Source of the DNA: Desulfobacterales bacterium
GTDB taxonomy: Bacteria; Desulfobacterota; Desulfobacteria; Desulfobacterales; UBA11574
Assembly: GCA_046484425.1 (NCBI GenBank)
Contig: JAWOIY010000023.1
Coordinates: forward strand, 27,771 to 91,770
Length of the DNA stretch: 64,000 nucleotides
Reading direction: 5' to 3'
Each line of letters starts with the position of its first letter. Position 1 is the first letter of the stretch. The position numbers and the translations under genes were made by a program. Positions 3,438 through 9,569 of the stretch are shown here, in pieces. Under the pieces are notes generated by a model. The model was given only the letters and a program-made list of their open reading frames with translations, was not told the DNA's origin and searched no databases.

Positions 3438-4838
3438 TTAACAGGTTTTCTTCAATCTTTTTCTATTTACCTTATCCGGCCGATCTTCAGTAATCACACA
3501 GGCCGACTTGTTTGATCGTGCTTTTTTGAATGCCGGGTTGGGTGTTTCTAAATTAAAAAGCGCGTTTTGCCCCTGAAGTTTATCTCGTTCATCCGGATTA
3601 AAAATTTTTATTCTACCAAATTCTCCGTCATACCCTGGTAAAAGATCAATTTTGTTTTGCCGAACCCTCATAATCGCCTCGCCTAACAAGGGAACGTCCG
3701 CAGTCTCAATAATTTCTTTGTCAATGGTCGTTAAAATGTCGAATTCGGATCCCAGTTTTTCAAGTATATATCTATAGTTCCCCATCACTTTTTTTGAACC
3801 AGGACCTACATTTAGAACTTCGGACAAAATTTCAACAAGCGGAATAGTATGTTGAAAAGAATGATATTTTTTTGGTTTAATCCCTTCCGGACGATCTGCA
3901 AGCTCCTCCACCCTGTACAATACACCCAGGGTTAGCGGTTTTCCGCAAACCGGGCATATTTTCCCTTTTTCACGTGTCGTTTGGGGCCAATAACGAACAT
4001 TACAGTTTCTATGTCCATCAAGATGATATTTTCCTTCTTCCGGATAAAATTCCAACGTACCTAAAAATCTTTCAGGATCACCACTTTTTAAAGCGGATTT
4101 TACCGCGAAATATGAGAGTTCTGTATTAAACAGATTTGCTTCACGCCCCAATTTTAATGGTGAGTGTGCATCAGAATTTGACACGAGCGTCAGGCCGTCC
4201 AGTGCAGACACCCGCCAGTTCATTTGAGGATCTGAGGAAAGACCCGTTTCAACAGCAAAAATATAAGATGTAAGATCCTCAAAACACTCATTTATAGAAT
4301 CGAAACCTGATTTGGAACCCAGAACCGAAAACCACGGCGTCCAGATATGGGCAGGAATAAGGAACCCCGCCTCAGATGTTTCAAGAAGCATTTCTAAAAG
4401 ATCCCTGGCATCAAGACCAAGTATCGGCCTTCCGTCAGATTTTATATTTCCAATCTTGTCGAGTTTAAAAATAAATTTCTCCGCCTGATCAAAATCGGAT
4501 AAAAAAACAAGATTATGATTTTTACGGACTTTTTTGTTTTTTTTATATATATTGCTAATTTCAGAAACCAGCATAAAATGAACGGTTCTGCGGCATGACT
4601 TTGGAATTTCTTGATCACATAATCTCGAATATTTTTCTTTCAACCTGAACATCCCGGGTTCAGCAGGTGTCAGTTTTTCTTTTATTTCAGCAAACCAACC
4701 GGGATGGGTAAAATCACCGGTTCCAATAACGGATATACCTTTCAGTTGCGCTGCAATGTATAAATTTTCAAGATCCGAATTCTTTGCCGTTGCCATGGAA
4801 AAACGGGAATGAACATGAAAATCAGCGATAAACTTCAT
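3438..4838 (-). CDS. Endonuclease Q family protein (PHP fold, TIGR00375/YqxK-like)
   Basis: ADFHVHSRFS, GTGDFTHPGW, PAHIWTPW, ETGLSSD, SNSDAHS, LGREAN, GKYHLDGHRNC, CPVCGK, PGYDGEFG. Confidence 0.9.
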   Translation of the reverse strand: MKFIADFHVHSRFSMATAKNSDLENLYIAAQLKGISVIGTGDFTHPGWFAEIKEKLTPAEPGMFRLKEKYSRLCDQEIPKSCRRTVHFMLVSEISNIYKKNKKVRKNHNLVFLSDFDQAEKFIFKLDKIGNIKSDGRPILGLDARDLLEMLLETSEAGFLIPAHIWTPWFSVLGSKSGFDSINECFEDLTSYIFAVETGLSSDPQMNWRVSALDGLTLVSNSDAHSPLKLGREANLFNTELSYFAVKSALKSGDPERFLGTLEFYPEEGKYHLDGHRNCNVRYWPQTTREKGKICPVCGKPLTLGVLYRVEELADRPEGIKPKKYHSFQHTIPLVEILSEVLNVGPGSKKVMGNYRYILEKLGSEFDILTTIDKEIIETADVPLLGEAIMRVRQNKIDLLPGYDGEFGRIKIFNPDERDKLQGQNALFNLETPNPAFKKARSNKSACVITEDRPDKVNRKRLKKTC

Positions 4839-4903
4839 ATTTTTTTCTTAGTCACTGGGTTATTGTTGGATATTCGGTAAAAACACTTGTAACATTCGGA
4901 TAA

Positions 4904-4951
4904 ACAGTATATATACTTAGATTAAATAAAATTAAACACAATATATAGTAT
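4904..4951. promoter_or_regulatory. Tandem NrdR-box-like sites
   Basis: ACACAATATATAGTAT (4936-4951) closely matches the NrdR consensus acaCwAtATaTwGtgt. A weaker ACAGTATATATACTTA (4904-4919) lies 32 bp upstream, the typical tandem spacing. Confidence 0.6.
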
Positions 4952-5221
4952 TTTTTTAATTTTTAAAAGATTTAGATTTTTTGCAAAACACACATTTAAA
5001 ACTATGTATTTTATATTGATATTTTTTCAACAAATCACTACTTATAAACATTTTTTTTTATGTTTAACGACAATCTATGTTTTTTATTATTTTTTCTACG
5101 CTTTTCTTGTAAGTTTTAAATCCGTTTTTTAATATTATATTAATAAGTTATAAAGTTGTTGTCATTATTAACAATCTATAATCATTATTCTATTAATATA
5201 TAAACAAATAAGGAATGGATA
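4952..5221. other. Very AT-rich oriC-like region with variant DnaA boxes
   Basis: TTTTCAACA (5024-5032), TTATAAACA (5042-5050) and TTATTAACA (5165-5173) each differ from TTWTNCACA at position 6; the region is directly upstream of dnaN and a parS lies about 16 kb away. Confidence 0.45.
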
Positions 5222-6340: not shown

Positions 6341-8775
6341 ATATAAAAGAAAACGTATATAATGCTGATCAAATAAAGGTTCTCGAGGGACTTGAGGCGG
6401 TCAGAAAAAGACCGGCCATGTATATCGGGAATATTAATATTGAAGGGCTTCATCACTTGGTCTACGAAGTTGTGGACAACAGTATTGATGAAGCCATGGC
6501 CGGTTATTGTGATTTGGTAAAGGTTGTCATCCATACGGATAATAGTGTAAGTGTCGAAGATAATGGAAGGGGAATTCCTGTTGGTATACAAAAAAGCGAG
6601 AATATGCCTGCTGTTGAAGTTGTAATGACAAAACTTCATTCAGGAGGTAAATTCGATAATTATTCATATAAAGTATCCGGTGGACTTCATGGTGTCGGTG
6701 TATCTGTAGTCAATGCCCTTTCGAAATTTTTGGAAGTCGAAATTTATACAGACGGGAAAATCTATTATCAGACCTTTGAAAAGGGAAAAAAAACCAGTGA
6801 ACTGAATGTCGTCGGTAAAACGAAGAAACGGGGAACAAAAATACACTTCGTTCCTGATACCGAAATTTTAGAAACAGATAATTTTAACTATGAGATTCTG
6901 ATTCGAAGATTAAGAGAACTCTCATTTTTAAATAAAGGGGTCCGATTAACCATTGAAGATGAACGCACAGATAAAAAGGATGAATTCTTTTATAAAGGTG
7001 GGATCGTATCCTTTGTGGAATATCTGAACAAATTAAATTCTCCGCTTCACAAACCAATTTTTATAGAAGGTGTGAAAAGTGACGTTGAAATAGAGGTTGC
7101 CATTCAATATAATGATACATATAAGGAAAAATTATTTTCATTTGCAAATAATATCAATACGATAGAAGGTGGGTTTCATCTTATCGGTTTTAAAGCGGCA
7201 TTAACACGTGCCATTAATCAATATTCAACCAATGGAAGCCTTCCAAAAAATCTAAAAGCCAACCTCAGCGGAGACGACATCAGGGAAGGTTTAACGGCAG
7301 TAATAAGTATTCGAATAAAATCCCCGCAATTTGAGGGTCAAACAAAAACAAAACTCGGAAACAGCGAAGTTAAAGGTCTGGTTGAGTCTCTGGTCAACGA
7401 AAAGTTGAGTATATTTTTAGAAGAAAACCCGGGTATTGCCAAAAAAATAATTACCAAAGCCGTGGATGCTTCTCGAGCCAGGGATGCAGCCAAACGCGCC
7501 AGAGATCTTGCCAGAAAACAGGGCGCACTTATAGATTCGACCCTTCCGGGAAAGCTTGCCGAATGTCAGGCTTCCGACCCGGCCGAAAGGGAGCTTTTTA
7601 TTGTGGAAGGCGACTCAGCCGGAGGCAGCGCAAAACAAGGACGCGATAGAAAATTTCAAGCCATTTTGCCTTTAAAGGGAAAAATATTAAATGTTGAGAA
7701 AGCTCGATTTGATAAAATCTTACGAAGTGAAGAGATTAAAAATATAATTACCGCCCTTGGAACGGGCGTCGGAGAGGAAGAATATGATATCGAAAAAATC
7801 AGGTATCACAAGACCATCATCATGACAGATGCTGATGTCGATGGATCTCACATCCGGACGTTATTATTAACTTTTTTTTACAGACACATGCCCGAGATGG
7901 TAGACAATGGATACCTTTATATTGCCCAACCCCCATTGTTCAAGGTTGGTAAAGGAAAGAGTTCTATTTATCTAAAAAATGAAAAAGAGTTGAATGATTA
8001 TGTCTTGAAAAGAGCGTGTGATAAAAAAAATATTAGATTCGAAAAAAGAGAGGATAAGTTATCAGAACACAACCTTTATCTTTTTATAGCAAATCTTTCC
8101 GAATATTTTTCCATAATGTCGAGATTTAATGACAAAGGAATTCTCGATGATCTTATTGAAACGCTCATAAAAGAAGGGGTTGAGAATAAAGATTTTCTTC
8201 AAGACCGACAGAAGATGGCGCAACTAAAGGATATGCTGAACAATCAAGGTTATAATGTCAGCGAAATAATCTGGAATGATGAAAGAGATGTTTATGAAAT
8301 GACAATAGAACCGTCTTTTGATAAACAGAAAGAACTACTGATGATCGATTTGTCTAACCGGAAGATCAGACCCTTGACTATCAACAGAAACCTTATTTAT
8401 TCGAGTGATTTTCAAAACAGCCTGATTTTATACAAAAACATATTAAAAAATGACAACCCGCCGTTTTTTATTTTCAATAAAGAAGATGAAAAAAGTCATA
8501 TTTGTATAGATGATAAAAAACAGGTTCTTTCGTTTTTTATGGAAGATGGGAAAAAGGGGCTCGACATTCAGCGATACAAAGGTCTTGGAGAAATGAATCC
8601 AGTGCAGTTGTGGGAAACAACCATGAACCCGGAAAAAAGAACGCTGTTACAGGTCCATGTTGAAGATGCCGTAGAAACCGATGAAATTTTCACCGTACTC
8701 ATGGGAGAGGAGGTCGAGCCTCGAAGAGAATTTATCAGTAATAATGCCCTTGAAGTCAGCATGCTGGATATATAA
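6337..8775 (+). CDS. gyrB: DNA gyrase subunit B
   Basis: [66 protein letters not shown] overlap with dnaN. Confidence 0.98.
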
Positions 8776-8777
8776 AA

Positions 8778-9569
8778 ATGTATATTCATAAAATACAAGC
8801 AAGAGATTTGCCGGACCTTTGGTTTCAGGCTGTTCATGATATACTGGATCATGGTCGAAAATTTAAAATCGATCGTGGAAGTTATGCGGGTCAGACACGG
8901 TTGGAATATGATTATTTTACCGGCCACATTAAGTATCCCGGAACTCGGCCGCTTTTGCCTGATATTCCTCCTTCATGCGGTATTCCGAACCCGGTGGAAG
9001 AGGCTTATATTTACGGAGGGGAAGGTTATCAAAGATCGTATATCGAATATATCATGACCGGTCAAAAAGAACCGGGAGAATCTTATACGTATGGAGAAAG
9101 ACTCACCCGTGCACCGATTTCAGAAGAAAAGCTTGGATGGTGGAAAGCAGGGAACACGGAAATAATAGACAAAAGAGATGTGGACGGAAGGGCGGTTTTT
9201 GAAGAGGATGGCGAGCTTTTTCTAAATCAAATCGAATGGATCATTCAAACATATCAAAAGTATGGCAGAAGAAACAATCAAATGGTGCTCCAAGTGGCGC
9301 ATCCTTCCGATCTAACGCTTTTGGACCCGCCATGTTTGCGTTCCATAGACACCAGAATACAAAATGACGCACTTCATTTTATTGTGTATTTTCGTTCATG
9401 GGATCTATGGGGAGGGATGCCGGCGAACCTTGCCGGGATTCAAAATCTAAAAGAATATATGGCCGGAGAGGTCGGGGTAAAAGACGGTGAAATGATCGTT
9501 GAAAGCAAGGGACTTCACCTTTACGGGTATGCAGAAGAACTGGCGAAGCTTCGATGTATGAAGGCATAA
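8778..9569 (+). CDS. thyA: Thymidylate synthase (archaeal-type ThyA)
   Basis: YTYGERL, catalytic DPPCL, FRSWDLWGGMPAN, GLHLY; starts 2 nt after the gyrB stop. Confidence 0.85.
   Translation: MYIHKIQARDLPDLWFQAVHDILDHGRKFKIDRGSYAGQTRLEYDYFTGHIKYPGTRPLLPDIPPSCGIPNPVEEAYIYGGEGYQRSYIEYIMTGQKEPGESYTYGERLTRAPISEEKLGWWKAGNTEIIDKRDVDGRAVFEEDGELFLNQIEWIIQTYQKYGRRNNQMVLQVAHPSDLTLLDPPCLRSIDTRIQNDALHFIVYFRSWDLWGGMPANLAGIQNLKEYMAGEVGVKDGEMIVESKGLHLYGYAEELAKLRCMKA

What the first reader, a model, noticed from the sequence alone, without database searches (positions are those of the whole stretch)
3438..9569. Candidate replication-coupled uracil control module: EndoQ divergent from dnaN-gyrB-thyA
Seen: EndoQ is head-to-head with a tightly coupled dnaN-gyrB-thyA operon (ATGA overlap, then a 2-nt gap), in the position normally held by dnaA; recF and gyrA are missing. 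Known: EndoQ nicks 5' of dU, hypoxanthine and abasic sites; ThyA converts dUMP to dTMP; archaeal EndoQ works on the PCNA clamp. Inference: uracil prevention (ThyA), removal (EndoQ) and the clamp share one regulatory spacer with NrdR-like boxes. I do not recognise this as a described bacterial arrangement.
Basis: partly seen in the sequence, partly recalled or inferred. Interest (0 to 1): 0.72.

Follow-up and report, generated by a model that had tools for sequence, protein, structure and literature searches.

The report
Replication origin beside a truncated EndoQ
The gap between these genes is likely the chromosome's replication origin, carrying a promoter predicted to be repressed by the nucleotide sensor NrdR for the clamp, gyrase and thymidylate-synthase genes; the neighbouring repair nuclease is the leftover front part of a nuclease-helicase gene, so this is likely not a dedicated uracil-control system.

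Summary
Genes and coordinates are right, and the order is conserved: endoQ faces dnaN in 27 of 28 family loci and, with or without two RdgC-like genes between, in 9 of 19 loci from other families of the order. The 383-bp spacer is likely oriC: lowest GC in the genome, GC-skew minimum here and in a 400-kb stretch of a relative, fixed DnaA-box-like sites; dnaA lies elsewhere. It also holds two NrdR-consensus boxes 32 bp apart on a conserved promoter facing dnaN-gyrB-thyA. The same box sits at the ribonucleotide reductase promoter, and two relatives carry nrdJ inside the operon. So the logic is dNTP supply for replication, not uracil: ung (57 of 61 genomes) and dut (53 of 61) are present. The 'EndoQ' is the front 40% of an EndoQ-UvrD fusion; the helicase half was deleted through a 10-bp repeat, and close strains carry either allele. 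Co-repression of endoQ remains possible (divergent promoter in 11 of 27) but untested. The scan found the fusion and the origin earlier on other DNA; the NrdR pair and the recurrent helicase loss were not in the notes I saw.

The parts
3438..4838 (-). EndoQ-family nuclease, 466 aa: N-terminal part of an EndoQ-UvrD fusion whose helicase half is deleted; metal ligands H8, H10, E93, H108, H164, D223 and pocket G199/S201 kept
3555..3569 (-). internal clamp-type motif QNALF (residues 424-428); F invariant, Q and L in at least 90% of 40 homologues
   Evidence: binding not tested
3451..3460 (-). 10-bp direct repeat at the deletion junction (about 2 kb of helicase sequence lost)
3373..3462 (-). last 29 codons of the ancestral helicase, ending QLKLF-stop, now out of frame
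4839..5221 (.). 383-bp spacer, 19% GC; likely oriC plus promoter(s)
4887..4915 (+). predicted sigma-70 promoter TTGTAA-17-TATATA facing dnaN; same layout in 27 of 27 family spacers
4904..4918 (.). NrdR-type box 1 (12 of 15 to published consensus), over the predicted -10
4936..4950 (.). NrdR-type box 2 (14 of 15), 32 bp after box 1
5042..5050 (+). distal DnaA-box-like site TTATAAACA, about 180 bp before dnaN in relatives too
5165..5209 (+). proximal DnaA-box-like site TTATTAACA followed by an AT-rich tract: predicted unwinding region
5222..6340 (+). dnaN, sliding clamp, 372 aa
6337..8775 (+). gyrB, 812 aa
8778..9569 (+). ThyA-family thymidylate synthase, closest to the methanogen-type model (below its cut-off); C186, R206-S-x-D209, N217, H247-x-Y249 align with solved ThyA

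Best explanation
The spacer is likely the chromosomal origin of these Desulfobacterales, separated from dnaA, and it carries a promoter predicted to be repressed by NrdR that would drive dnaN-gyrB-thyA as a replication and dTTP-supply operon. Shown: gene order, the two boxes 32 bp apart, the skew switch, the deletion in endoQ. Inferred: NrdR bound to its pair would turn down clamp, GyrB and thymidylate synthase when dNTPs are plentiful and release them when they are scarce; the transcript would run through the DnaA-box region. endoQ(-uvrD) is a clamp-motif-bearing repair gene that flanks the origin on the other side and is copied and read away from it; it is an inherited neighbour, movable and losable, and in this strain reduced to a stand-alone nuclease that likely still nicks 5' of dU, dI and abasic sites as a back-up to Ung.
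For: Origin: lowest-GC 300-bp window of 75,335 scanned in the genome; cumulative skew minimum of the 117-kb contig at window 5205; in G011 the minimum of 400 kb lies 114 bp from the dnaN start with opposite skew on the two sides, in G037 it lies 4 kb from dnaN and there is no switch around dnaA; TTATn(A/C)ACA within 200 bp of dnaN in 32 of 42 loci at near-fixed distances. NrdR: consensus and two-box spacing from papers; 22 of 27 family spacers have a box within 2 mismatches and 20 of 27 a pair, 14 of 29 reductase promoters have one, reversed control 0 in both; nrdR in 60 of 61 genomes; nrdJ between gyrB and thyA in 2 of 19 other-family loci. Boxes belong to the dnaN side: promoter conserved 27 of 27; pair kept in G040 where endoQ is a stub of about 20 codons; none before 11 of 11 unlinked endoQ. 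Not uracil-specific: UDG 57 of 61, dUTPase 53 of 61. endoQ movable: absent from 10 of 19 other-family dnaN loci; next to dnaN in 21 of 80 wider loci and in none of the 30 titled outside the deltaproteobacteria.
Against: No RNA run, no footprint, no transcript start. The boxes lie 66-112 bp from the endoQ start but about 270-320 bp from dnaN, and 11 of 27 family spacers have a 10-of-12 promoter facing endoQ with box 1 inside it, so endoQ may be co-repressed there. Other families have fewer boxes overall (6 of 19 dnaN operons with a close box), which weakens the unlinked-endoQ comparison. Most of the genome's other pairs sit before genes unrelated to nucleotides, and this genome's own reductase box is only 12 of 15 with a weak partner. 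Skew was tested in two relatives only, and left of dnaN in G037 it is nearly flat. DnaA-like boxes differ from the canonical 9-mer at two places and had no shuffle control.
Confidence: 0.62

Rival explanations
1. The first reader's module, in weaker form: overlapping divergent promoters under one NrdR pair would co-induce thymidylate synthase, clamp and a clamp-docked EndoQ when dTTP runs short and dUTP is misincorporated, and this is why the adjacency is kept.
For: Head-to-head in 27 of 28 family loci; minus-strand TTGATA-17-TATAAG-type promoter over box 1 in 11 of 27; internal QxxLF survives every truncation examined; thyX replaces thyA behind gyrB in one relative; archaeal EndoQ is stimulated by PCNA.
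Against: The minus-strand promoter is 6 of 12 in this window and under 9 of 12 in 16 of 27 at that register; Ung and dUTPase are present; only 8 of 19 other-family loci keep both endoQ and a thymidylate synthase; boxes persist without endoQ.
Confidence: 0.22
2. The paired palindromes are bound by a factor other than NrdR (a global or origin-binding regulator of this family), so the operon would not be tied to dNTP sensing.
For: Pairs also lie before HU, ParA-like, HTH, CBS-domain and unknown genes; in E. coli and P. aeruginosa only reductase operons have pairs.
Against: Match to the published consensus, 31-32 bp spacing, the same box at the reductase promoter and nrdR in 60 of 61 genomes.
Confidence: 0.1
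3. The window's endoQ is a decaying gene: loss of the helicase half is the first step to loss of the whole gene, and the short protein has no role.
For: Short forms sit at the tips of the tree (7 changes for 8 short rows of 32, quick tree); a 97%-alike strain keeps the helicase; the endoQ-facing promoter is degenerate here; G040 keeps only a stub.
Against: The frame is open for 466 aa with all catalytic ligands; the deletion allele is bridged by contigs from four studies, including a strain about 92-95% alike; dN/dS of the nuclease part is 0.12-0.21 in pairs with short forms against 0.08-0.20 in full pairs (most of each path predates the deletion); archaeal EndoQ works without a helicase.
Confidence: 0.25

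Closest known systems
Endonuclease Q (P. furiosus, PDB 5ZB8, 7K30-7K33; T. kodakarensis; Bacillus pumilus)
   Same: PHP, zinc and helical domains over residues 5-424, E 1e-47; the six metal ligands, His195 and the Gly/Ser pocket are kept; a clamp-type motif follows the nuclease.
   Different: First zinc-finger cysteine is histidine; below the TIGR00375 cut-off (154 of 327 bits); derived from a helicase fusion; activity untested.
Long bacterial EndoQ homologues with C-terminal QLxLF (Shiraishi 2016, PMC4858679, Suppl. Fig. S1)
   Same: Relatives are 1080-1150 aa, end in QLxLF and have UvrD domains; the supplement lists Desulfobacter and Desulfobacterium proteins with the motif at residues 1084 and 1152.
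   Different: This copy has lost the helicase and the terminal motif and keeps only the internal one; repeated loss across genera is not in the passages I read.
NrdR regulon (paired boxes before ribonucleotide reductase operons)
   Same: Consensus match, 31-32 bp spacing, overlap with a promoter, nrdR present, box at the reductase gene.
   Different: A pair before dnaN-gyrB-thyA at the likely origin. The 2025 preprint describes single boxes at dnaA and topA and pairs only at reductase operons in two species; the RegPrecise Proteobacteria supplement text has no dnaN or thyA.
Bacillus subtilis incC origin before dnaN (DnaA boxes, then DnaA-trios; PMC6669920)
   Same: Distal and proximal DnaA-box-like sites and an AT-rich tract directly before dnaN.
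   Different: dnaA is not adjacent (different contig in 50 of 50 genomes with close hits for both); boxes read TTATnAACA; trios are not clearly resolved.

Membership tests
EndoQ | PHP domain with H, H, E, H, H, D metal ligands | tested here: met
   H8, H10, E93, H108, H164, D223 (E93 and H108 placed by the family alignment, the pairwise alignment is gapped there)
EndoQ | C4 zinc domain and C-terminal helical domain | tested here: inconclusive
   H276-x2-C279 and C295-x2-C298, invariant in 16 rows; first ligand is His
EndoQ | nicks 5' of dU, dI, abasic sites | not testable with these tools
   no assay
EndoQ | binds and is stimulated by the clamp | tested here: inconclusive
   motif conserved; binding itself needs an assay
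EndoQ-UvrD fusion | UvrD N- and C-terminal domains and terminal QLxLF in frame | tested here: not met
   deleted in the window; present in G013 and 17 of 24 complete family genes
NrdR regulon | two consensus boxes 31-32 bp apart at a promoter | tested here: met
NrdR regulon | nrdR gene present and the same box at reductase genes | tested here: met
   (second box at the reductase promoter is weak)
NrdR regulon | binding and repression | not testable with these tools
   no RNA holder listed
oriC | GC-skew switch and AT-rich intergenic region | tested here: met
oriC | DnaA boxes next to DnaA-trios | tested here: inconclusive
   conserved two-mismatch boxes at fixed distances; trios not resolved in AT-rich DNA
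ThyA | catalytic Cys, RSxD, Asn, HxY; complements thyX | tested here: met
   (roles of the residues recalled); thyX in 0 of 36 family relatives, and 5 of the 8 relatives with thyX lack this gene
Dedicated uracil-control module | substitutes for missing ung or dut | tested here: not met

The most novel reading that the evidence does not exclude
In this family NrdR sits on a promoter at the replication origin and controls, through overlapping divergent promoters, the clamp, gyrase B, thymidylate synthase (and in some relatives nrdJ) on one side and a clamp-docked EndoQ(-UvrD) on the other, so that dNTP status sets replisome supply, deaminated-base repair and, by transcription through oriC, initiation itself.
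Probability: 0.2. Interest if true: 0.7.

Novelty: new variant of a known kind. Interest (0 to 1): 0.36.

Why it matters
It would extend NrdR, described as a reductase-only repressor where tested, to core replication genes and to a promoter inside a likely origin, a link that one gel shift and one mutant could test. The repeated natural loss of the helicase half gives matched long and short forms of an unstudied bacterial EndoQ-UvrD protein. Every part is of a known kind, and the uracil-module reading is not needed to explain the layout.

Tried and rejected
Complex prediction of DnaN with EndoQ residues around the internal motif: no answer (0.24 and 0.20, mark 0.32); not used either way. Sequencing runs: no RNA holder listed. 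Promoter scan of the spacer: 6 sites against 4.1 +/- 2.0 in shuffles, uninformative; conservation was used instead. The first box pattern was generalised from the window's own box and a recalled consensus, so its shuffle result (0 of 2000) is circular; searches use the published consensus. Assembly artefact as the cause of the short gene: rejected, contigs of four studies bridge the junction (X1 may be the source sample). Compensation for missing ung or dut: rejected. Origin at dnaA: no skew switch in the one genome tested. The careful tree and the one-clade test did not finish; only the quick tree is cited. Paper searches for this arrangement found none; Rodionov and Gelfand 2005 and Shiraishi 2017 were not available, and the bioRxiv supplement with genome-wide box lists is closed, so earlier mention of NrdR boxes at deltaproteobacterial replication genes cannot be excluded (I recall dnaA and parA cases there, unverified).
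Full report
Observation. The four ORFs, the ATGA overlap and the 2-nt gap are as described. dnaN and gyrB pass curated cut-offs; the nuclease matches TIGR00375 below cut-off and PfuEndoQ at E 1e-47; the last gene is ThyA-family, nearest the methanogen-type model. dnaA is on C181 beside pdxA and uvrA, gyrA on C240. recF reached the family cut-off in 0 of 61 genomes, so its absence is a trait of the lineage, not of the locus. Titles of the nearest named records are Desulfobacterales.

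Synteny. I fetched 46 of the 54 relatives with a dnaN hit. In the family (window plus 27) endoQ faces dnaN in 27 of 28, the other contig ending 78 bp upstream; dnaN-gyrB-thyA is contiguous in 25 of 28, two contigs end in gyrB and one breaks after dnaN. In 19 loci of other families endoQ faces dnaN directly in 2, across two RdgC-like genes in 7, and is absent in 10; thyA follows gyrB directly in 7, after an nrdJ in 2, thyX follows in 1, and 9 have neither; 8 of 19 keep both endoQ and a thymidylate synthase. Among the best 80 of 588 confirmed homologue loci, dnaN is adjacent in 21, none among the 30 titled outside the deltaproteobacteria. The arrangement is an inherited order-level neighbourhood.

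The nuclease. In 17 of 24 complete family genes, and 61 of the 80 wider loci, it is the front of a protein over 1000 aa with UvrD domains and mostly a terminal QLxLF. The window aligns to G013's 1133-aa protein over residues 1-470 and again over 1105-1133, the latter out of frame. Run X5 has a 97%-alike contig that leaves the window at 3451 into helicase sequence and another that leaves at 3460, which places a 10-bp repeat at the junction and shows an intact allele. Contigs of X1, X2 (one study; may be the source), X7, X9 and X11 (three more studies) bridge the deletion; X4 did not cover it and X6 stopped at 3461. Short forms need 7 changes for 8 rows on a quick tree of 32 rows; contig-cut and frameshifted genes were left out. 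Catalytic ligands named in PMC5961232 and the pocket residues named in PMC8307549 (passages read) are kept. The internal motif (QNALF here) has invariant F in 40 rows. PMC4858679 (passages and supplement rows) already notes clamp motifs in bacterial homologues, including 1088- and 1156-aa Desulfobacterales proteins. A separate UvrD-like gene lies on C134.

The spacer as origin. It holds the lowest-GC 300-bp window of the genome (16.7%) and the skew minimum of its contig. In G011, 400 kb show negative skew in 8 of 10 bins left of it and positive in 10 of 10 from it on, minimum 114 bp from the dnaN start; in G037 the minimum of 200 kb is 4 kb from dnaN with a nearly flat left side, while 200 kb around dnaA stay positive in 8 of 10 bins. 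Close dnaA and dnaN hits are on different contigs in 50 of 50 genomes (G043 left out, only a distant dnaA hit). TTATn(A/C)ACA sites lie about 180 and 57 bp before dnaN in most relatives (32 of 42 with at least one), followed by AT-rich DNA, like the B. subtilis region described in PMC6669920 (passages). Both units face away from this point.

The boxes. Published consensus and pairing: PMC4009431 section 11, PMC12176259 and bioRxiv 2025.03.28.645925 passages. Window boxes match 12 and 14 of 15, 32 bp apart; the genome has six pairs against none for the reversed pattern. 22 of 27 family spacers and 14 of 29 reductase promoters have a box within two mismatches, controls 0 (one locus of each set dropped for short flank). 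nrdR is in 60 of 61 genomes. A TTGT-17-TATA promoter facing dnaN is kept in 27 of 27, and is visible before the RdgC-like genes in loci without endoQ. G040 keeps the pair with only a stub of endoQ; 11 of 11 unlinked endoQ loci have no close box. Against a one-sided reading: 11 of 27 spacers also have a 10-of-12 promoter facing endoQ across box 1 (6 of 12 in the window), its -10 coincides with a DnaA-box-like site, and boxes are scarcer in other families anyway. Other pairs in the genome precede HU, ParA-like, HTH, CBS-domain and unknown genes, so the regulon looks broad, or the factor is another.

Uracil. UDG is in 57 of 61 and dUTPase in 53 of 61 genomes, both in G000. The ThyA-like gene is the family's only thymidylate synthase found (thyX 0 of 36). 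With nrdJ joining the operon in two relatives, the shared theme is deoxynucleotide supply for replication.

Verdict. Real and conserved; best read as origin plus an NrdR-boxed replication operon, flanked by a repair gene that has lost its helicase here. Shown: order, boxes, skew, deletion. Inferred: origin function, NrdR repression, nuclease activity, clamp binding. The fusion and origin were found earlier by this scan on other genomes; a word search for the NrdR pair found no note. Papers in search listings other than those named were seen as listings only; PMC5343134 as passages and two supplement passages.

Noticed in passing
G000:C141:1-9183: A second endoQ / RdgC-like pair / dnaN / gyrB / thyX block, dnaN only 57% identical to the window's; likely a contaminating contig (bin contamination 5.1%).
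   Followed up: partly
L036:6720-7862 and 14 other order-level loci: Two conserved genes (204 aa, weak RdgC hit; 174 aa, no Pfam hit) head the dnaN operon in other families and are absent from this family's locus.
   Followed up: partly
G000:C160:5004, C54:13732, C163:27323, C89:30859, C142:6958, C72:13383: NrdR-type boxes before HU, two ParA-like genes, an HTH gene, a CBS-domain gene and (single, 380 bp away) aprB: a possibly broad regulon in this family.
   Followed up: partly
G000 whole genome: ThyA-family synthase but no DHFR (PF00186) found, and no class III reductase found; two class II-like reductases (C256, C10). The folate-recycling enzyme is unidentified.
   Followed up: no
G007, G009, G012, G013, G028, G035: A second full-length dnaA about 70% identical to the query on another contig.
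   Followed up: no
L031:9182-13255, L039:2463-6992: GyrB frames of 1357 and 1509 aa, probably with inteins or insertions.
   Followed up: no
L032, L091 (G060, G040): Shorter 220-aa ThyA-like variant lacking about 40 internal residues.
   Followed up: no
G000:C134:64 and C256:6027: The same reductase-promoter stretch ends both contigs, so they probably overlap there.
   Followed up: no
window 35176-42391: Two SNF2-like helicase genes around a SWIM-type gene (named from sequence motifs, recalled; no scan run).
   Followed up: no
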